63,904 nucleotides of DNA from an uncultured Rickettsiales bacterium (GTDB lineage Bacteria; Pseudomonadota; Alphaproteobacteria; Rickettsiales; JABDBP01): contig CAYVHI010000001.1 of the NCBI GenBank assembly GCA_964450945.1, positions 1 through 63,904 of the forward strand. Direction: 5' to 3'. The notes beneath the pieces were generated by a model that had not been told where the DNA came from, ran no database searches, and saw only the letters and a program-made list of their open reading frames with translations. Below are positions 1-19,163 of this stretch, in pieces. Position 1 is the first letter of the stretch, and each line of letters starts with the position of its first letter. The translations under genes and the position numbers were made by a program.

Positions 1-1173
1 GGTTACGGATTTTATCTCGCCATTCCTCACGACCGCCCTCTCCTCACCGGCGCCAACAGCAAGGATGGCACCCTGCGGTGGGTTTACAATTGCACTGAAT
101 TGTTTGATGCCATACATGCCAAGGTTGGAGATTGAAAATCCACCACCCTGGAATTCTTCCGGCTTTAGTCCTACGCTTCTTGCCCTGCCGGCAAGGTCTT
201 TCATTTCATTGGAAATCTGCATTACTGTTTTTTGATCAGCATTTCTGATTATCGGGGTTATAAGCCCGCCATCTAGCGCAACAGCTACAGAAATATCTAC
301 ATTATTATATCTTATTATCGCTTCCTCGGTCCATGATGCGTTGGCGGAAGGAACAGACCTTAGCGCCAGCGCCACTGCCTTGATTATAAAATCATTCACT
401 GAAAGTTTATATGCAGATTTTCCTTCTTTACCGGCTTTTTTCACCGCTTCATCATTCAGATCTTTTCTTACTTCCATCAACTTATCAAGTTCTGCATCAA
501 TGGTAAGATAGAAATGTGGAACGGTGAGTTTTGATTCCACTAAACGTTTTGCAATTACTTTCCTAATATTGCTGTTTGGAATTGGTGTATATTCAACAGG
601 GTTCCTAATTACGCGGCCACTTCCACCGCCAGCCCTTGCAGCAATAACATCCGCCTTAATTATCCTTCCGTGCGGGCCAGTGCCGATAATCCCGGCAAGT
701 GAGACTCCTTCTGACTGTGCCACACGCCTGGCAAGAGGCGATGCTTTTAGCCTTCCATCAGATGAGGCAGAGAATGTTGGTGGTGGCGGAACAAAAACAG
801 GTATAGCAGGCGGTGAAAACGATGGGGAGGTTGTCGCCACAGCCGGAGCTTTTGTTTCTTTCTTTTCTTCTTTTGGTGCAGATGCTGGTGCCGTTTTTGG
901 TTTATAATTATCAAGTGCTTTCTTATCCTCTCCATCTTCAAGCAGAAGTGCAATAAGTTCATTAACTTTTACATTCTGTGCACCTTCTTTCACGATTATT
1001 TTCGCGATTGTCCCTGCATCCACCGCCTCCACTTCCATAGTGGCTTTATCTGTTTCGATTTCTGCAATGACTTCGCCGGGCTTTACTTTATCCCCTTCCT
1101 TTTTAACCCACTTGGAAAGGTTGCCTTCCGTCATGGTGGGCGATAGCGCTGGCATCAGGATTTCAATTGGCAT
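1..1173 (-). CDS. pdhC: Pyruvate dehydrogenase E2, dihydrolipoamide acetyltransferase (3' end runs off the window)
   Basis: Manual translation from ATG at 1173: [22 protein letters not shown]...[13 protein letters not shown] (lipoyl domain); near position 1 reads [16 protein letters not shown]. Absent from the ORF track because no stop lies in the window. Confidence 0.96.
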
Positions 1174-1236: not shown

Positions 1237-1734
1237 CTAATAATCGTAATTCTGATAATCATCACCCTCATTGCATGCATGTGGGTTTGTATAGCTGTTT
1301 AGATTAACATTAAACTGTATTTTGTTGGCAGCAAGAATCTCTGAAATTTTTTCAATGGCTTCTGGCGGTTCGATTTTATATGAGGTGCTGCCACTTACCT
1401 GATATGTTATGTTGCTTTCGCCATCTTCATATGAACCCTGCTGGCTGTAGATATTGAAATTCTGGTTTGTTGATTCAAAAGTTTTTACATCAAGCTTTTT
1501 CACTATATCTTCTATTTCATGCATTTTATTTAAAAATTTATCCTTGGCGCCGCTAACTGTTTTTTCCTTGGCATTATAATTTATTGTAAGTGATGCATTT
1601 TCTCTTACACATTTTTCTATATTGCCTTTTTTTATTTGAACTCCTACCCGCGCTGCCGGAGAAGGAGCAGCAAATATAAGCGTAGGGCTAGCCAATATAC
1701 AAGTAAGAACAAAAATTTTAACATGATTCTTCAT
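1237..1734 (-). CDS. Secreted protein, SIMPL/DUF541-like (paralog 1)
   Basis: Signal-peptide-like N-terminus; shares Cys/ASLTINY/SY-x-I pattern with 2182..2601 and 2606..3082. Family assignment is by eye. Confidence 0.6.
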   Translation of the reverse strand: MKNHVKIFVLTCILASPTLIFAAPSPAARVGVQIKKGNIEKCVRENASLTINYNAKEKTVSGAKDKFLNKMHEIEDIVKKLDVKTFESTNQNFNIYSQQGSYEDGESNITYQVSGSTSYKIEPPEAIEKISEILAANKIQFNVNLNSYTNPHACNEGDDYQNYDY

Positions 1735-1747
1735 ATAATGTACTCCA

Positions 1748-2185
1748 TTATTTCTTTGGTGTTTTTATTCTTTCCAGAGTAGCACCTTTCTCCCTGTAAG
1801 GATCTAAGGCCTCCGATATTTCTCCTGCTGCTGCAAAACCTATATGCGTTATCAGAAAACCAGAAACATTTTTAACCTGCTCCAACTCCAGAGAGCCTAT
1901 TACCGCCATAGGAATATCCATCTTGCAGGCAGGTTGGAACAATCCTGCTTCACTAGCGTTTCCGAGCCTTTGTATCTTAAGATCGGGATGTTTTCTGCTA
2001 ATTGCACTTACAACCTCATCTCTTGCCTTATAGTGTCTAAAACCTATATCCATTTCAAACCCATCAGTAATTCTTGCAACCGCAAGCCTTTTTATTTTCG
2101 GTTCAAAACTTTTGTTTCCTTCAAAAGTATGTTCATAGATTATTATAGGTTCTGTTGTATCAGGCATAGGTTTCCTATTTATCAA
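1748..2185 (-). CDS. Hypothetical protein
   Basis: 145 aa ORF on the operon strand; its start overlaps the upstream stop (ATGA). Confidence 0.65.
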   Translation of the reverse strand: MINRKPMPDTTEPIIIYEHTFEGNKSFEPKIKRLAVARITDGFEMDIGFRHYKARDEVVSAISRKHPDLKIQRLGNASEAGLFQPACKMDIPMAVIGSLELEQVKNVSGFLITHIGFAAAGEISEALDPYREKGATLERIKTPKK

Positions 2186-2601
2186 TTACATGTTTCCTGA
2201 TAACTGCGAATATTAAGATTAACCATGAATCCCTTTTCATTAAGCATTTCAGAAAATTTTTGTGCGGCCTCTGTCGGATCAATACTATAAGAAGAATTTC
2301 CGTTTACATTAATAATAGTCTCACCAGATTGGCCGGTTGCATTATTTATGCTGATGCTTTCATTCTGCACTTCAATTTTTTTAACACCAGCCTGCTTGGC
2401 TATCTCCCGTATTTCAAGCAATCTGCTATCAGCTTTCTGTTTTGCAGCAGATATAGTGTCGCTCTTATTGATGAAAGAGATTGAAACTGTAGCTTTCTGT
2501 TTCAGGCATTTTTTATTTTCACCTGCAGCCTGAGCAGAAGAAGAATTGGCTGATAAAAATAATACAGATAATAAAAATAAAAAAACTGAATTGATTTTCA
2601 T
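2182..2601 (-). CDS. Secreted protein, SIMPL/DUF541-like (paralog 2)
   Basis: Likely start MKINSVFLFLLSVLFLSANSSSAQA (signal peptide); ATVSISF...AAKQKADSRLLEIREIAKQAGV resembles the SIMPL N-terminal half. Confidence 0.65.
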   Translation of the reverse strand: MKINSVFLFLLSVLFLSANSSSAQAAGENKKCLKQKATVSISFINKSDTISAAKQKADSRLLEIREIAKQAGVKKIEVQNESISINNATGQSGETIINVNGNSSYSIDPTEAAQKFSEMLNEKGFMVNLNIRSYQETCN

Positions 2602-2605
2602 AAAC

Positions 2606-3082
2606 TTATTGCTCCCTAGGTTCCCAATCACTGTCTATTAAAGTTTTTCGGCAAGGTATTTCATTATTTTTATTTTTATAGACCTCAATACTAAAATTGA
2701 TGCCATTGGAGTTTAGTAATTCTGCAAGTTTATACATTTCCGTCTCGCCTATTCTATCAAGGCTGTAGGTGGCGCTTGCCGAAATACTAAAATCTTTTGA
2801 ATCTCCTTCATCCTCGCTATCACGATTATAATTGATGGTTGTATATTCAGATAAAAGTTTTGAAGAAGTGCCAAATTGTTTTGTCAGTTCTTCAATTTTC
2901 TTTTTCTTATTATAAAAAATATCTATTCCGGATTTTGCATTTTTTGCCGTGAAATCATTATTTATTGAAAGGCTTGCTGTGGTTATAAAGCAGTCATTAG
3001 ATTCACGATTCTCCTGTGTCGCCAGTGAATATCCTGGCATGATTGAATATAAAAAAATTAACAAGAATAATATTTTTTTCAT
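2606..3082 (-). CDS. Secreted protein, SIMPL/DUF541-like (paralog 3)
   Basis: [21 protein letters not shown] signal peptide; same Cys pair and strand pattern; start overlaps the pdhB stop. Confidence 0.6.
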
Positions 3083-4062
3083 AAACGGTTACATAAAGTT
3101 TTTGCCGCAGCAATTATTTCACTGGTTTGCGGCAGGGCCAGCTTTTCAAGGTTTACTGCATAAGGCAGCGGCACATCTTTTCCGGTAACGCGGGCAACTG
3201 GTGCATCCAAATAATCAAACGCTTCTTCCATAATTACCGCCGCAATTTCAGAGCCAATCCCAGCATAGGGCCAACCCTCTTCCACACTGATGATGCGGCT
3301 GGTTTTCTTCACTGATTCGACAATGGTTTCCTTATCAAGCGGCCGGAGCGTCCTAAGGTCAATCACTTCAGCACTTATACCTTCTTTTTCTAGTTCATCC
3401 GCCGCTTCAAGCGCTGCTTTCATGGTTATTGAGAATGCGGTTATTGTAATATCATTTCCTTCACGCACAACTGCTGCCTTGCCTATATCAACCAGTAAAT
3501 CTTTTTCTTCGGGAACCTCAAAACTATGCCCGTAGAGTATTTCATTCTCTAAAAATATTATCGGGTTTGGGTCACGTATTGCGGATTTTAATAATCCTTT
3601 TGCGCTGGCGGCATCATAGGGTGCAATAACTTTTAAACCGGGAATATGCGCATACCAACTTGCATAATCCTGGCTGTGTTGAGCGGCAACTCTTGCTGCC
3701 GCGCCGTTTGGTCCTCTAAAAACAATCGGGCATTTAACCTGCCCGCCACTCATATAATTTGTTTTTGCGGCGGAGTTTATCAACTGGTCCATCGCCTGCA
3801 TGGCAAAATTCCATGTCATGAATTCCACAACCGGTTTCAAGCCAGCCATTGCGGCACCTATTCCGAGTCCTGTAAATCCATGTTCGGTTATTGGTGTATC
3901 AATAACCCTATTTGCACCAAACTCCTGCAATAATCCTTCGGTAATTTTATATGCCCCCTGATATTCAGCAACTTCTTCACCCATAACAAATACATCTTTA
4001 TCACGGCGCATCTCTTCGGCCATCGCATCCCTTAAAGCTACTCTCACTGTTTGCTGCGGCAT
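3079..4062 (-). CDS. pdhB: Pyruvate dehydrogenase E1 beta subunit
   Basis: [42 protein letters not shown] motifs. Confidence 0.98.
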
Positions 4063-4544
4063 TATCTTTTCCTCCCACCCTCTTTATCTAGTACAATTTT
4101 AAATCTTGGGGGCATATCAAGTCCTTTTGCATCATCAAGAATCTGGTCATTAGACTGCCTAGGTCTTTCTCCTAGAATTGCCATAGTAAGTTCATTTATA
4201 ACTTGCTTGGCCACAGTTAAATCTGGAATATTATCAAAAGCTTTATAATATCTTCCAGCAACTTCCTGCCAACCTTCAAGCGCTAAATCTTGCAATCTTC
4301 TAAGTTCAAGCAAAGCTTCCTGTTCTGGAAATTCAGCGCCCTTTTTTTTAACCCCTCTCATTACAATCGCCACAATATTGGCCCCACCTATGAAATTAAA
4401 ATTATCTTGGTCTGTTTCCTGCCTCGGTCCATCTCCACACCTAGTAGCAAATTTTTCCATTTCGTCAATTTTTGCAGCAAAAGCATCTCTATTTTTGCTA
4501 AGCATTAAAATTATTTCTCGTGCACTTTCAAAAACTGTGGCCAT
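4062..4544 (-). CDS. Hypothetical protein between pdhA and pdhB
   Basis: 160 aa ORF starting 3 nt after the pdhA stop; its stop overlaps the pdhB ATG (TAATG). Confidence 0.7.
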
Positions 4545-4547
4545 ATT

Positions 4548-5861
4548 TCATCCAGTCACATCCGTCCAGAGTTCACTTTCATCAGGCAGCGGAGAATTTT
4601 CTGAGAAATCTACCGCTTCCTGCACTTTATCCTTCACGCGTTTTTCGATTTCCGCGAATTGTTTTTCTTCAGCGATTTTATTTTCGGTAAGGAATTTTTT
4701 CAGGTTATCTATAGGGTCGCGTGATTCACGGAAACTCTGCACTTCCTCTTTACTTCTGTATTTTGCCGGGTCAGACATGGAGTGGCCACGGTAGCGGTAA
4801 GTTTTCATCTCGAGAATCATCGGTCCATTACCTTCCTTCACATATTTCACTGCGGCATCACCGGCCTGTTTAACATCGAATATATCCATGCCGTCAACCT
4901 GCTTCCCCGGGATGCCGAAACCTTCGCCACGGCGAAAAAGATCGGTTGTGGCAGAAGAGCGCTTTACTGAAGTTCCCATCGCATATTCATTATTTTCGAT
5001 GATATAGATAACCGGCAATTTCCATAACGATGCCATGTTAAAAGATTCATAAACCTGGCCTTGGTTCACTGCGCCATCGCCAAGGTATGTCAGGCACAAA
5101 TTCTTTTTATTTTTATATTTCTGGGCAAATGCAATTCCGGTTCCGATTGGCACCTGTGCGCCAACTATTCCATGGCCGCCATAGAAATTTTTTGGCAAAT
5201 CAAACATGTGCATCGAACCGCCTTTGCCTTTTGAGCAGCCGCCAATCTTTCCCATCAGTTCAGCCATTATGGTTTTCGGGTCACTCCCCGTTGCTAGCAT
5301 CAAACCGTGGTCACGGTAGCTTGTTACTACCGCATCATCCTTTGTTATTGCATGTTGCATGCCTATCGCCACCGCTTCCTGCCCTATATATAAATGGCAG
5401 AAGCCGCCGATCTTTCCCATGCCATAAAGCTGCCCGGCCTTTTCCTCAAACCTTCTGATAAGCAACATTTCCTCATAGGCAATAAGCATTTCTTTTATGG
5501 AGAGAACTTTCGCGGCATCATTTTTTGCCCACTGCTTATGCAAGCTGCATAGCGTGGAGGATATTACTTTTTCGCCACCACTATTCTTTATGCTGACCAC
5601 TGATGGTGCATCTTTAGCGCCGAATAATTCTTCCACTGTGCAACCAAGCACTTTTGCGATGCTTGTGAGTGTTATGTATGTGGGGCTTTGTATCCTGCCA
5701 ACGATAATATCTCTCACCGCCGTTTCATTCAGCCCGGCGGCAAGCGAAACTTCTTTCATGTTGGTATTTTTTTGTTTTATCCTGCGTTCAAGTTCTTTCC
5801 TTAAAACGCTGCTGGGGTTTTTCCCAGCGTTAGGTTGTTCTTTTCCTGTTTCTGCTCTCAT
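4548..5861 (-). CDS. pdhA: Pyruvate dehydrogenase E1 alpha with an N-terminal XRE-type helix-turn-helix extension
   Basis: C-terminal ~320 aa: MLLIRRFEEKAGQLYGMG, GFCHLYIGQEA, GDGAVNQGQ..E..N, TYRYRGHSMSDP. N-terminal ~80 aa: SLAAGLNETAVRDII..GRIQSPTYITLTSIAKVLGCTVEEL (HTH). Confidence 0.95.
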   Translation of the reverse strand: MRAETGKEQPNAGKNPSSVLRKELERRIKQKNTNMKEVSLAAGLNETAVRDIIVGRIQSPTYITLTSIAKVLGCTVEELFGAKDAPSVVSIKNSGGEKVISSTLCSLHKQWAKNDAAKVLSIKEMLIAYEEMLLIRRFEEKAGQLYGMGKIGGFCHLYIGQEAVAIGMQHAITKDDAVVTSYRDHGLMLATGSDPKTIMAELMGKIGGCSKGKGGSMHMFDLPKNFYGGHGIVGAQVPIGTGIAFAQKYKNKKNLCLTYLGDGAVNQGQVYESFNMASLWKLPVIYIIENNEYAMGTSVKRSSATTDLFRRGEGFGIPGKQVDGMDIFDVKQAGDAAVKYVKEGNGPMILEMKTYRYRGHSMSDPAKYRSKEEVQSFRESRDPIDNLKKFLTENKIAEEKQFAEIEKRVKDKVQEAVDFSENSPLPDESELWTDVTG

Positions 5862-5949
5862 CCCTGTTGCCCCTTTGAATACGGATATTAATCGATAACT
5901 AAAAGGAATGAAATAAATAATTTTTTATTAAATATCAATATCTTGTCTC

Positions 5950-5966
5950 GTTAATCATTTTTTAAC
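5950..5966. promoter_or_regulatory. CtrA-type box GTTAA-N7-TTAAC
   Basis: gttaatcattttttaac between the divergent HTH-pdhA and the small 6010 ORF; matches the alphaproteobacterial CtrA consensus in both orientations. Confidence 0.6.
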
Positions 5967-6009
5967 TCTTTTGGTGCAGAATAAGTCCTGTAAAAACAAA
6001 GAGATATTT

Positions 6010-6192
6010 ATGATGGAAAAAACACCGGTAATATTACCATTCAAATTTACTTCGTTTGCCCCTACTAAGCCGGCGGCGGAAGAAAAAAAAGATAATATAG
6101 TCCAGCTGCGCAGGAAAATTGTTTATCTGAATCAGGTAAAATTAAAAACTGATAACAACGGCGCAAAAGAAAAACTAGATATAATCACCTGA
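6010..6192 (+). CDS. Small hypothetical protein
   Basis: 60 aa ORF (MMEKTPVILPF...), divergent from pdhA. Confidence 0.4.
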   Translation: MMEKTPVILPFKFTSFAPTKPAAEEKKDNIVQLRRKIVYLNQVKLKTDNNGAKEKLDIIT

Positions 6193-6194
6193 AA

Positions 6195-7160
6195 TTATTT
6201 TCTTCTGCCTATTTCTCTCTGATAGAGCGGAAATTCGAAACCTGTTTCCCTTTCAATGCTTTCTTTAGCATAACGCAGGTTATCCTTTGCCATTCTGATT
6301 ACTGCGGCAGATCCTGACATTACATCTTCTGTATTCTTTAACGGCTTCAATTTTCCGGCTACGAGCAAAGCGTATATTTCTGCAAATTTCTTATCAAATA
6401 TATTAAGCAGGTCTTCTCCCTCCGGTAATGGCGGTGAGTTAAGCGCCTCGGCCGGGTCAAGCCGTTCTATTATAAAATCAAGCAACCCGCCGCCCGAAGC
6501 TTCTTTTAACTGAAGTACCTTAGTTCTCAGCTGCTCTGTAATTTTGTGGTTAGGGTGTGACATATTCTTTTTCGTCTCATGCCAGGCACAGGCATAATCA
6601 ACACCTATAAACATTTGTGAAAGTCGCCTGTCCGCAATGTTTTCAATAGGCGGGGCCGCAAGAAGGGCTTTTCTTACACGCTCTGCTATAAGTGGTTTTT
6701 CTAAAAACTCTTGCAGAGGCTCAATATCAACATCAAAAAAGGCAAGTTCATCCATTGTTCCTATTGCCGCCTCCAGCCCACTTACTGTGCGTGCTATGAT
6801 GGGAAATTCTATGGAAAGGTTATAATTCTTTTCCTTTTTGCCATGAACTGCAACCTCTTCATATTCACCATTCTTGTCAGAAAGAACTATTGGATAAAGG
6901 CGTGGCTTCATGCTGATAACGCCTGAATAGAGAAGAATAAGGTCTTTAAGACCATCAATGGTAAAATCCGCCGCCTGGTCAAGCTTTCCGCTCCTTACTG
7001 CACCAAGAGCTTTTTGTAGCGGGTGATCTCTTACCGCCCTTAAGACTTCATAAATCGGTTTATTACGCTCATCTGCTGTTATGCCAAGGGTCATAACATT
7101 CACAAGGGGTTGCATTATGCTTATACTTGCTGCCAGCTCTTCCTTGTGATCATAAAGCAT
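6195..7160 (-). CDS. Hypothetical protein
   Basis: 321 aa ORF directly downstream of the LOG gene; no motif recognised. Confidence 0.7.
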   Translation of the reverse strand: MLYDHKEELAASISIMQPLVNVMTLGITADERNKPIYEVLRAVRDHPLQKALGAVRSGKLDQAADFTIDGLKDLILLYSGVISMKPRLYPIVLSDKNGEYEEVAVHGKKEKNYNLSIEFPIIARTVSGLEAAIGTMDELAFFDVDIEPLQEFLEKPLIAERVRKALLAAPPIENIADRRLSQMFIGVDYACAWHETKKNMSHPNHKITEQLRTKVLQLKEASGGGLLDFIIERLDPAEALNSPPLPEGEDLLNIFDKKFAEIYALLVAGKLKPLKNTEDVMSGSAAVIRMAKDNLRYAKESIERETGFEFPLYQREIGRRK

Positions 7161-7736: not shown

Positions 7737-7850
7737 TCAATTCCTCAATTTTTTCGCTTTATAATTGGTGATATTTGGTTTATTCATTATCACCCATTAT
7801 ATAGGAACTTAGTTAATAATTCATTAAAGGCGGGTTTTATAAAGGAAATT

Positions 7851-17413: not shown

Positions 17414-17429
17414 TTAACAAAACCTTAAC
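17414..17429 (+). promoter_or_regulatory. CtrA-type box of cassette 2
   Basis: ttaacaaaaccttaac, with a -10-like tattat 22 nt downstream. Confidence 0.6.
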
Positions 17430-18484: not shown

Positions 18485-18559
18485 TTAACAAAACCTTAAC
18501 ACTAAAAAACCCTAAAATACTATATAATCTGCGGTTCATCGTACCCTCGGGTTATAGAA
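18485..18559 (+). promoter_or_regulatory. CtrA box, -10 and leader start of cassette 4 (repeat copy 1)
   Basis: ttaacaaaaccttaac...tataat; 18496..18559 is identical to 19100..19163 (64 bp). Confidence 0.7.
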
Positions 18560-19088: not shown

Positions 19089-19163
19089 TTAACAAAACTT
19101 TAACACTAAAAAACCCTAAAATACTATATAATCTGCGGTTCATCGTACCCTCGGGTTATAGAA
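19089..19163 (+). promoter_or_regulatory. CtrA box, -10 and leader start of cassette 5 (repeat copy 2)
   Basis: ttaacaaaactttaac plus the 64-bp block identical to cassette 4. Confidence 0.7.

What the first reader, a model, noticed from the sequence alone, without database searches (positions are those of the whole stretch)
4548..5966. XRE helix-turn-helix fused in frame to pyruvate dehydrogenase E1 alpha
Seen: one uninterrupted 437-codon ORF with an ~80 aa HTH (SLAAGLNETAVRDIIVGRIQSPTYITLTSIAKVLG), an ~40 aa linker, then canonical PdhA. I see no separate SD+start ahead of the PdhA core, and a perfect CtrA-type box lies ~90 nt upstream. Established: PdhA normally has no DNA-binding domain; PutA is the precedent for a metabolic enzyme-repressor fusion. 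Inference: a trigger enzyme coupling pyruvate/TPP status to transcription, or a recent fusion through stop loss.
Basis: partly seen in the sequence, partly recalled or inferred. Interest (0 to 1): 0.8.

Follow-up and report, generated by a model that had tools for sequence, protein, structure and literature searches.

The report
DNA-binding head fused to pyruvate dehydrogenase
An uncultured Rickettsiales bacterium makes the alpha subunit of its only pyruvate dehydrogenase E1 as one protein with an intact repressor-type DNA-binding domain at the front, and relatives have made similar fusions independently several times, so the enzyme probably also controls genes, most likely its own operon.

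Summary
Window 4548-5861 (-) is one uninterrupted 437-codon ORF. Residues about 17-83 are an XRE/Cro-CI helix-turn-helix (HTH), residues 84-120 a linker, and residues 121-437 a complete alpha-type PdhA. The sequence is identical in contigs from at least seven independent biofilter metagenome runs, so it is not an assembly error.

It is the only pdhA in the 1.74 Mb genome. It heads the operon HTH-pdhA, orf160, pdhB, SIMPL-like ORFs, pdhC. No internal start has a Shine-Dalgarno motif.

This particular HTH-PdhA combination is unique in 5.8 billion proteins, and the sister genus lacks it. The HTH matches the consensus of a family whose members normally carry other C-terminal domains, such as Peptidase_S24 or a ~70-aa helical tail. 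So this is a domain swap, not a stop loss.

At least three other, non-homologous Cro/CI-type heads are fused to PdhA elsewhere in the same order. Two of them are as conserved as the enzyme core. One sits behind an invariant palindrome-bearing promoter that unfused relatives lack.

Best reading: a real bifunctional protein in which the E1 tetramer dimerises the HTH for autoregulation. DNA binding and any metabolite sensing are untested. The main rival is a neutral passenger domain.

The parts
4548..5861 (-). Single ORF of 437 codons plus stop: the HTH-PdhA fusion gene, and the only pdhA in the genome
   Evidence: Identical in independent assemblies.
5613..5816 (-). XRE/Cro-CI type helix-turn-helix domain, residues about 16-83. 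Predicted helices at 16-31, 35-42, 46-54, 62-72 and 76-79.
   Evidence: Pfam HTH_3 and HTH_26 above cut-off. Near-perfect match to the family consensus NMKxLSLAAGLNETAVRDILxGRxxxPTYxTLxxLAxVLGCTVxxLxG. AF2 pLDDT about 87-92. Foldseek gives about 1 A rmsd to SinR, DdrO, 434 Cro and P22 c2.
5502..5612 (-). Linker, residues 84-120 (AKDAPSVVSIKNSGGEKVISSTLCSLHKQWAKNDAAKVL). Of unknown origin, predicted disordered at its start, with no stop and no SD-led start.
4548..5501 (-). PdhA core, residues 121-437, with the ThDP motif GDG...NN and YRYRGHSMSDP intact. Homology to the sister genus's pdhA begins here.
   Evidence: 78-80% identity to G001, P0002 and P0004.
5870..5875 (-). SD-like AAGGGG, 8 nt before the ATG of the fusion ORF
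5862..6009 (.). AT-rich (27% GC) divergent intergenic region. Holds the presumed promoter or promoters, a TAATAT -10-like hexamer at 5885-5890 (-), and weak inverted repeats (GATATT...AATATC at 5884-5942). It is the candidate operator region.
   Evidence: No repeat is significant, and no regulon was found by word search.
5950..5966 (.). Perfect GTTAA-N7-TTAAC palindrome. It is either a CtrA-type box or, alternatively, a 17-bp operator for the HTH dimer.
   Evidence: CtrA orthologue in the genome.
6010..6192 (+). Divergent 60-aa orphan ORF, called as a gene in independent contigs. No family.
4062..4544 (-). 160-aa orphan ORF wedged between pdhA and pdhB. It starts 4 nt after the pdhA stop and its stop overlaps the pdhB start. 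No family, and absent from 40 relatives.
3079..4062 (-). pdhB (E1 beta)
1237..3082 (-). Four small ORFs, two of them with SIMPL (DUF541) matches, between pdhB and pdhC
1..1173 (-). pdhC (E2: lipoyl, E3-binding and catalytic domains), running off the window

Best explanation
The gene encodes a genuine two-part protein. An N-terminal XRE-type HTH head was taken from a family of two-domain regulators and has lost its own C-terminal domain. It is joined by a flexible linker of about 37 aa to a fully intact E1 alpha subunit of the pyruvate dehydrogenase complex.

Shown: the ORF is real and reproducible. It is the only pdhA in the genome. It heads the pdhA-pdhB-pdhC operon. The HTH is consensus-like and folds as a five-helix DNA-binding domain.

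Inferred: E1 is an alpha2-beta2 tetramer, so it supplies the dimerisation that the HTH lost. That places two heads on one particle, which can then bind a dyad-symmetric operator in the 5862-6009 promoter region and feed back on transcription of the pdh operon (autogenous control).

One plausible input, which is speculation, is the pool of E1 not docked on the E2 core rather than pyruvate or ThDP itself.

The enzyme part works as ordinary E1 alpha.
For: 1. The ORF is intact and identical in independent assemblies.

2. There is a single pdhA copy, and the catalytic core scores 512 bits on TIGR03182. No internal start has an SD. So active E1 alpha most likely carries the head.

3. The HTH keeps every invariant and nearly invariant residue of its family. 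It is 45-56% identical to homologues. It gives a confident five-helix model that superposes at about 1 A on DNA-bound repressor heads. Its GC content (44%) is host-like.

4. There is convergence in the same order. Class B is in 6 genomes of family f18, class D in 5 genomes of f14, and class C is P0108. Unfused sister lineages exist in each family. The heads are not homologous beyond generic HTH similarity. hhalign gives 45% probability for A vs B, 7% for B vs D, and nothing for A vs D.

5. In classes B and D the HTH has pN of 0.03-0.21, about the same as the PdhA core. Synonymous sites are saturated, and the linker is at 0.3-0.49.

6. Class B promoters carry an invariant 17-mer, TTATCCATTTTGTATAA (TTATnCA-N3-TGnATAA), between -35 and -10. 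Unfused f18 relatives keep the same promoter frame without it.
Against: No comparator exists for this particular fusion: one clonal sequence and no second species. Selection on this HTH therefore cannot be measured, and the fusion could be young.

No significant palindrome or regulon motif was found upstream.

No RNA or protein data exist.

The best-scoring dyad upstream is a CtrA-consensus box that has an obvious other owner.

XRE-like domains are used as purely structural domains in some enzymes, such as HppE and MPnS, which are among the fold matches.

Many genes of this genome lack an SD, so internal initiation at M125 is not excluded.
Confidence: 0.5

Rival explanations
1. Neutral passenger. 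A deletion or recombination replaced the 5' end and promoter of pdhA with the promoter, start and HTH head of a neighbouring or mobile regulator gene. PdhA tolerates N-terminal extensions. The head is translated but has no regulatory role and will decay.
For: The fusion is unique to one genome and absent from the sister genus. Synteny around pdhA is broken in this family, with orphan ORFs on both sides. N-terminal tails of PdhA vary freely in length and sequence across the order. No operator is detectable.
Against: The head shows no sign of decay and is almost the family consensus. Comparable fusions in three other lineages are kept under strong purifying selection, so such fusions are evidently useful in this clade.
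Confidence: 0.27
2. The head is functional but does not act as a transcription factor. It could be a structural or protein-interaction module, as in the XRE-like alpha-domain of HppE and MPnS, or an unspecific tether of PDH to the nucleoid.
For: The fold search returns HppE and MPnS, enzymes with an XRE-like domain, among the matches. Selection in classes B and D shows function but not which function.
Against: The recognition-helix residues of a bona fide regulator family are retained. The class B promoters carry a conserved dyad tied to the presence of the fusion, which points to sequence-specific DNA binding at least there.
Confidence: 0.1
3. Two products, or mainly a short one. Translation also or chiefly starts internally (M125 ATG, giving 313 aa), producing ordinary PdhA. 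The long form is minor. This is the design suggested for class B, where the native SD and ATG survive inside the linker.
For: Class B keeps cAGGAGaaa plus ATG (the native MSKA start) in all 6 genomes. In this genome many genes lack an SD. A 313-aa product is close to the shortest PdhA open frames in the order, 319-321 aa.
Against: There is no SD-like motif before any internal candidate here. No promoter-like site was found on the coding strand inside the ORF. M1 has an SD-like AAGGGG. Classes C and D also lack a conserved internal start: the position is CTT or ATA in some class D genomes.
Confidence: 0.1
4. Artefact. A sequencing or assembly error merged two genes.
For: None beyond the rarity of the architecture.
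Against: There are zero differences and zero gaps across the junction in contigs assembled independently from at least 7 runs of 4 studies. Homologues of the HTH do not end where the linker begins, so there is no 'lost stop' position.
Confidence: 0.03

Closest known systems
Trigger enzymes and enzyme-repressor fusions with an N-terminal DNA-binding domain (PutA, BirA, NadR; MocR/GabR/PdxR-type HTH-aminotransferase-fold regulators)
   Same: One polypeptide carries a DNA-binding head and a metabolic enzyme fold. The enzyme body provides the oligomerisation. The likely target is its own operon.
   Different: No E1 alpha (ThDP-dependent 2-oxoacid dehydrogenase) member has been described, as far as two full-text searches show. 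PutA uses a ribbon-helix-helix domain, BirA and MocR a winged HTH. Here the head is an XRE/Cro-CI five-helix domain. No effector is known. This comparison with named systems rests on general knowledge, not on a test here.
Alphaproteobacterial XRE regulators of the 'LNETAVRDIL-GR-SPTY' family (HTH plus Peptidase_S24-like, or HTH plus a ~70-aa helical tail; e.g. P0121, P0136, P0157)
   Same: The head is 45-56% identical, with all invariant residues kept. It has the same N-terminal position and the same helix-1 extension.
   Different: The family's C-terminal domain is absent and replaced by PdhA. There is no Peptidase_S24 match in the 437-aa protein.
HTH-PdhA fusions of other Rickettsiales found here: class B (YdaS/Cro-like, f18), class C (P0108) and class D (Cro-like, f14)
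   Same: The same architecture, with an HTH of about 60-70 aa, a variable linker of 30-45 aa, and alpha-type PdhA. The same operon position. The same order of bacteria.
   Different: The HTH heads are unrelated. Class B fuses a whole stand-alone Cro-like gene and keeps the native SD and ATG inside the linker. The window's head is a truncated two-domain regulator with no internal start signal.
HppE and MPnS (phosphonate enzymes with an N-terminal XRE-like domain)
   Same: An XRE-fold domain precedes a catalytic domain. They are fold matches at 1.3-1.6 A.
   Different: In those enzymes the domain is structural and is not known to bind DNA (general knowledge). The catalytic fold is a cupin, not a ThDP fold.

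Membership tests
Pyruvate dehydrogenase E1 alpha, heterotetrameric alpha/mitochondrial type (TIGR03182 PDH_E1_alph_y; Pfam E1_dh) | Score above the curated equivalog cut-off over the full model | tested here: met
   512.6 bits against a cut-off of 393.85, model positions 3-313 of 315, residues 124-435. E1_dh scores 361 bits.
Pyruvate dehydrogenase E1 alpha, heterotetrameric alpha/mitochondrial type (TIGR03182 PDH_E1_alph_y; Pfam E1_dh) | ThDP-binding motif GDG-X(25-30)-NN and the conserved YRYRGHSMSDP loop | tested here: met
   Read directly from the translation: YLGDGAVNQGQVYESFNMASLWKLPVIYIIENN and YRYRGHSMSDPAKYR.
Pyruvate dehydrogenase E1 alpha, heterotetrameric alpha/mitochondrial type (TIGR03182 PDH_E1_alph_y; Pfam E1_dh) | Operon partners E1 beta and E2 | tested here: met
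   pdhB at 3079-4062 (NF008854, 635 bits) and pdhC at 1-1173 (lipoyl, E3_binding and 2-oxoacid_dh domains).
Pyruvate dehydrogenase E1 alpha, heterotetrameric alpha/mitochondrial type (TIGR03182 PDH_E1_alph_y; Pfam E1_dh) | Catalytic activity | not testable with these tools
   Needs an enzyme assay.
XRE / Cro-CI helix-turn-helix DNA-binding domain (Pfam HTH_3, HTH_26) | Profile score above the gathering threshold | tested here: met
   HTH_3 scores 29.0 bits (32.1 on the isolated N-terminus) against 23. HTH_26 scores 26.8-29.4 against 22.
XRE / Cro-CI helix-turn-helix DNA-binding domain (Pfam HTH_3, HTH_26) | Five-helix lambda-repressor-like fold | tested here: met
   The AF2 model has 5 helices with pLDDT of about 87-92 over residues 21-80. 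Foldseek gives probability 1.00 and rmsd 0.9-1.4 A to SinR, DdrO, 434 Cro and P22 c2, though E-values are only 1e-3 to 3e-2 because the domain is short.
XRE / Cro-CI helix-turn-helix DNA-binding domain (Pfam HTH_3, HTH_26) | Sequence-specific DNA binding as a dimer | not testable with these tools
   No operator could be inferred.
HTH-Peptidase_S24 (LexA/CI-like) repressors | C-terminal S24 autoprotease domain | tested here: not met
   There is no Peptidase_S24 match in the 437-aa protein. Homologues such as P0121 have one. The protein is therefore not a member; only its head is related.
Trigger enzyme (an enzyme that itself controls gene expression in response to its metabolic state) | An active enzyme and a nucleic-acid-binding domain in one protein | tested here: inconclusive
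   Both domains are present and look intact by sequence and model. Neither activity has been measured.
Trigger enzyme (an enzyme that itself controls gene expression in response to its metabolic state) | Regulatory output depends on substrate, cofactor or complex state | not testable with these tools
   Needs EMSA or reporter assays with and without pyruvate, ThDP, acetyl-CoA and E2.
CtrA-controlled promoter | TTAA-N7-TTAA(C) box upstream, and a CtrA orthologue in the genome | tested here: met
   The box is at 5950-5966.
CtrA-controlled promoter | The box is positioned at the promoter of this gene and is bound by CtrA | not testable with these tools
   The box centre is 97 nt from the fusion ATG and 52 nt from the divergent orf60 ATG. 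No transcription start data exist.

The most novel reading that the evidence does not exclude
HTH-E1alpha fusions are a convergently evolved class of trigger enzyme in environmental Rickettsiales, hidden by annotation. The alpha2-beta2 E1 particle serves as the dimerisation scaffold of a Cro/CI-type head. E1 that is free, not docked on E2, or in a particular catalytic state represses the pdh operon. The window's protein is the newest and independent fourth instance, built from a truncated two-domain regulator.
Probability: 0.35. Interest if true: 0.8.

Novelty: new variant of a known kind. Interest (0 to 1): 0.62.

Why it matters
The pyruvate dehydrogenase complex is the entry point of carbon into the TCA cycle. 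Its transcriptional control in Rickettsiales, which have few regulators, is essentially unknown.

A DNA-binding head has been welded onto E1 alpha at least four separate times in one order. That would be a clear case of convergent invention of an enzyme-tethered regulator. It offers a simple, testable autoregulatory circuit.

It also exposes an annotation blind spot. For class D, NCBI records call the gene from an internal Met (332 aa) and drop a head that is as conserved as the enzyme. Domain censuses based on those records therefore miss the architecture.

Tried and rejected
1. Assembly or sequencing artefact. Rejected, because contigs are identical in at least 7 runs.

2. Divergent strains to measure selection on this HTH. 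None were found at 80% likeness.

3. RNA runs. None were found.

4. Other proteins with this head on PdhA. The region search, the full HMMER scan of 1.84 billion representatives and a word-index search of the N-terminus found none. The 150 best hits listed by the HMMER scan are mostly 70-340 aa regulators, with a few long multi-repeat proteins.

5. Stop loss of an upstream gene. Rejected. The sister genus has a TolC-like gene upstream and no HTH. The HTH family is two-domain.

6. Junction mapping by DNA and protein alignment to the sister pdhA. Homology starts only at residue about 121, and the origin of residues 84-120 is unresolved.

7. Foreign composition. The HTH GC (44%) equals that of host genes.

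8. Operator discovery. Inverted repeats in 5800-6250 are weak. A 14-mer scan of the genome with the intergenic region gave only low-complexity hits and three long matches. All three lie inside conserved coding sequences (sucA, a fadB-like gene, queA) and were judged coincidental.

9. Class B regulon. The second exact copy of the 17-mer lies inside ubiD coding sequence, where the reverse strand encodes YTKWI. It is therefore not evidence for a regulon.

10. Phage origin. PHROG hits are only generic repressor families, and the neighbouring orphans have no PHROG or Pfam match.

11. Naming the organism by genome contigs with the window protein. This found nothing. Class B genomes are labelled Rickettsiales or Alphaproteobacteria MAGs.

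12. Literature. Three full-text searches found no paper on HTH-PdhA fusions.
Full report
**What is there**

Window 4548-5861 on the minus strand is a single ATG-initiated ORF of 437 codons without any stop.

Pfam places HTH_3 at residues 26-79 and HTH_26 at 24-83, both above their gathering scores. It places E1_dh at residues 131-426. NCBIfam's equivalog model for alpha/mitochondrial-type PdhA (TIGR03182) covers residues 124-435 with 512.6 bits against a cut-off of 393.85. The ThDP motif (GDG...NN) and the YRYRGHSMSDP loop can be read directly in the translation.

The gene heads an operon:
- HTH-pdhA at 5861-4548.
- An orphan 160-aa ORF at 4544-4062, whose stop overlaps the pdhB start.
- pdhB at 4062-3079.
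- Four small ORFs at 3082-1237, two of them SIMPL-like.
- pdhC from 1173 to beyond the window edge.

A whole-genome search finds no second pdhA in the 1.74 Mb, 100%-complete assembly.

**Is it an artefact?**

No. The 1.9 kb around the gene, including the linker, is covered with zero differences and zero gaps by Logan contigs. These were assembled independently from biofilter-metagenome runs X1, X2 and X4; in X5 two contigs leave 5595-5608 uncovered. Zero-difference fragments in X6, X7 and X8 overlap the linker. The runs come from four studies. The exact 437-aa protein is called on four contigs. At 80% likeness no divergent strain appears, so the population looks clonal. No RNA run holds the region.

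**Anatomy of the head**

A full HMMER scan of 1.84 billion representative proteins with residues 1-120 gives 592 hits at E <= 1e-3, with the best 45-56% identical over about 65 residues. Most of the 150 best hits listed are proteins of 70-340 aa with the match at their N-terminus. None of those listed is a ~400-440 aa PdhA-length protein.

Inspection shows a modular family with a conserved head. The consensus is NMKxLSLAAGLNETAVRDILxGRxxxPTYxTLxxLAxVLGCTVxxLxG. The tails differ: a helical domain of about 70 aa (P0136, P0141 and others), a Peptidase_S24-like domain (P0121, P0157, P0164), or others.

The window's head keeps every invariant and nearly invariant column and is close to the consensus itself. 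The genome has its own distant HTH-S24 paralogue on contig 42, with 29% identity.

An AlphaFold2 model built on that alignment gives five helices (16-31, 35-42, 46-54, 62-72, 76-79) with pLDDT of about 87-92. Residues 1-15 and those after 82 are disordered. Foldseek superposes the model at 0.9-1.4 A on the DNA-binding heads of SinR, DdrO, 434 Cro and P22 c2.

The usual C-terminal domain of the family is absent. Homology to the sister genus's pdhA begins only at residue about 121, which is DNA position 5501. Base composition of the head (44% GC) is that of the host genes.

So the event was a joining of a regulator's promoter, start and head to pdhA. It was not the loss of a stop codon between two complete genes. 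In the only other genome of the same family (G001), pdhA has a TolC-like gene upstream and no HTH.

**Which start is used?**

- M1 is preceded by AAGGGG with an 8-nt spacer.
- The in-frame internal candidates (V88 GTG, L107 TTG, M125 ATG, M132 ATG) have no SD-like motif at -20..-4.
- No promoter-like site lies on the coding strand inside the ORF.
- SD use in this genome is only moderate: 38% of crude ORF starts have an SD-like 4-mer against 18% background.
- A 313-aa product from M125 would be about as long as the shortest PdhA frames in the order.
- A minor or additional short isoform therefore cannot be excluded.

**The wider picture changes the reading**

The full-length search turned up other proteins with HTH_3 plus E1_dh. 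A scan of 401 genomes of the same order, followed by retrieval of the long open frames, sorted them into classes. NCBI titles of members call the order Rickettsiales.

- Class B (MKLDAYLQK...GISAQAIYKYLRGERIP...VTANDFLDL) is in six genomes of family f18, spanning four genera. Other f18 genomes are unfused.
- Class D (MEIKLDV...ISRKAIEKWKERxSIP) is in five genomes of family f14. Other f14 genomes are unfused.
- Class C (P0108) has a classical XRE head and sits in an eno-ftsB-[HTH-pdhA]-pdhB-SIMPL-pdhC locus.
- The window is class A, in family f1.

Profile comparison shows only generic HTH similarity between the heads. A vs B gives 45% probability, B vs D gives 7%, and A vs D gives nothing. With unfused sisters in each family, these are independent fusions.

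At least 12 of the 370 genomes with a pdhA match carry a fusion. This is a lower bound, because only the top 150 rows were listed.

**Are such heads functional?**

In classes B and D, Nei-Gojobori counts give nonsynonymous differences of 0.03-0.17 (B) and 0-0.21 (D) in the head. That is the same as in the PdhA core (0.02-0.16). Synonymous sites are saturated (0.5-0.9), and the linker runs at 0.3-0.49. The heads are therefore translated in this frame and constrained as tightly as the enzyme.

Class B adds four further points.

1. Its head is a complete copy of a stand-alone 65-78-aa Cro-like protein that is common in free-living Alphaproteobacteria.
2. The ancestral f18 pdhA promoter frame (CTTGCA-N17-TATAA) is retained, with the HTH ATG only 8-10 nt after the -10. 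This suggests a leaderless or near-leaderless message, which is an inference.
3. An invariant 17-mer, TTATCCATTTTGTATAA (dyad TTATnCA-N3-TGnATAA), fills the spacer in all six fused genomes. It is absent from the five unfused f18 promoters examined.
4. The native SD and start of pdhA (cAGGAGaaa...ATG, MSKA) survive inside the linker in all six genomes, so long and short isoforms are likely there.

A second exact copy of the 17-mer lies inside ubiD coding sequence and cannot be taken as a regulon member.

Classes C and D have no conserved internal start. The position is CTT or ATA in some class D genomes. Even so, NCBI records of class D annotate a 332-aa product from that position and drop the head.

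**Best explanation for the window**

The protein is a real HTH-E1alpha fusion. The enzyme half is ordinary E1 alpha. The head has lost its own oligomerisation domain and is now carried in two copies on the alpha2-beta2 tetramer. It most likely binds a dyad in the promoter region 5862-6009 and feeds back on the pdh operon.

XRE regulators are typically autoregulated from their own promoter (general knowledge). A fusion that keeps the promoter and head and gains a new dimeriser would therefore create an autoregulated pdh operon at once. That would explain why the event keeps being fixed in this clade.

What signal, if any, modulates binding is unknown. Titration by docking on E2 is at least as plausible as sensing of pyruvate or ThDP.

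- I put about 0.5 on this full statement.
- I put about 0.9 on 'a real fused protein is made'.
- The main rival, at about 0.27, is a young, neutral passenger head. Only one clonal sequence of this fusion exists, no significant operator could be found, and synteny in this family is scrambled with orphan genes on both sides.
- A non-DNA role, as in the XRE-like domain of HppE and MPnS, and a mainly internal start are minor rivals.

**The CtrA-type box**

GTTAA-N7-TTAAC at 5950-5966 is a perfect full consensus.

- The pattern is enriched in the window, 11 against 4.0 +/- 2.1.
- It occurs 9 times in the genome against 0 for the reversed control.
- The genome encodes a response regulator 64% identical to Caulobacter CtrA.
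- The box lies between the fusion gene and a divergent 60-aa orphan ORF at 6010-6192 (+), and is nearer to the latter.
- It is also a 17-bp dyad of the kind an HTH dimer would bind. Its owner cannot be decided here.

**Novelty**

Enzyme-regulator fusions are a known kind (PutA, BirA, NadR, MocR-type). An XRE or Cro head on PDH E1 alpha is not described in the full-text library I searched. The specific class A combination is unique in the protein collections searched.

I rate it a new variant of a known kind. It has moderate-to-high interest because of the convergent recurrence, and it is held back by the lack of any functional or comparative test for this particular instance.

Noticed in passing
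window 4062-4544 (-): A 160-aa orphan ORF is wedged between pdhA and pdhB. It starts 4 nt after the pdhA stop, and its stop overlaps the pdhB ATG, so it looks translationally coupled. It has low GC3 (24%), no Pfam, NCBIfam or PHROG match, and no homologue in 40 relatives. It is called as a gene in independent contigs.
   Followed up: partly
window 6195-7160 (-) and 6010-6192 (+): A 321-aa orphan and a convergent 60-aa orphan lie directly upstream of the fusion gene. Neither has a family match. Together with orf160 they show that the pdhA neighbourhood of this lineage has been rebuilt with lineage-specific genes.
   Followed up: partly
L022-L027, L031 (class B genomes G095, G052, G369, G143, G211, G326), about 10-50 nt upstream of the HTH-pdhA ATG: There is an invariant promoter block GCTTGC-N8-TTATCCATTTTGTATAA-N7-9-ATG. 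A 17-bp imperfect palindrome sits in the spacer, and the start codon follows almost immediately after the -10, which may mean a leaderless mRNA. Unfused relatives keep CTTGCA-N17-TTATA but lack the palindrome.
   Followed up: yes
L041-L045 (G095:C5:148755, G211:C74:11578, G052:C2:400219, G326:C83:16487, G143:C6:153310): The same 17-mer, TTATCCATTTTGTATAA, recurs exactly or nearly so inside the ubiD coding sequence of the class B genomes. Its reverse strand there encodes the conserved YTKWI. An exact 17-mer match is unlikely by chance (about 2e-4 per genome), but the site is constrained by coding. It is unresolved whether this is coincidence or an intragenic site.
   Followed up: partly
class D proteins (cluster of P0064: P0125 and P0127 at 332 aa versus 408 aa for other sources): NCBI records annotate class D pdhA from an internal Met and drop a 76-aa N-terminal Cro-like head. 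That head is in frame, stop-free and as conserved as the enzyme. In some genomes the supposed internal start is CTT or ATA, so the start is probably mis-annotated.
   Followed up: yes
G000 contig 27, about 7808-7823 (inside sucA): A 16-nt exact match (TTTGAATACGGATATT) links the 5' leader of the HTH-pdhA gene (5874-5889, opposite strand) to the coding sequence of the 2-oxoglutarate dehydrogenase E1 gene. It was judged a coincidence, since it encodes FEYGY in sucA, but that was not proven.
   Followed up: partly
G000 contig 42, L018 1051-1722 (-): A native 223-aa HTH-S24-like regulator sits beside a chpT-like phosphotransferase gene and a cheA-like gene. It is the only paralogue of the fused head in the genome, at 29% identity.
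   Followed up: no
PDB entry 9a7f, listed: One fold match is an integrative model of the XRE regulator RghR bound to dihydrolipoyl dehydrogenase, a PDH E3 subunit. It hints that XRE heads and PDH components can also meet as separate proteins. It is a lead only and was not examined.
   Followed up: no
window 17414-17428, 18485-18499, 19089-19103: Three nearly identical TTAACAAAAC(C/T)TTAA boxes lie in the tandem cassette region and account for part of the excess of TTAA-N7-TTAA in the window.
   Followed up: no
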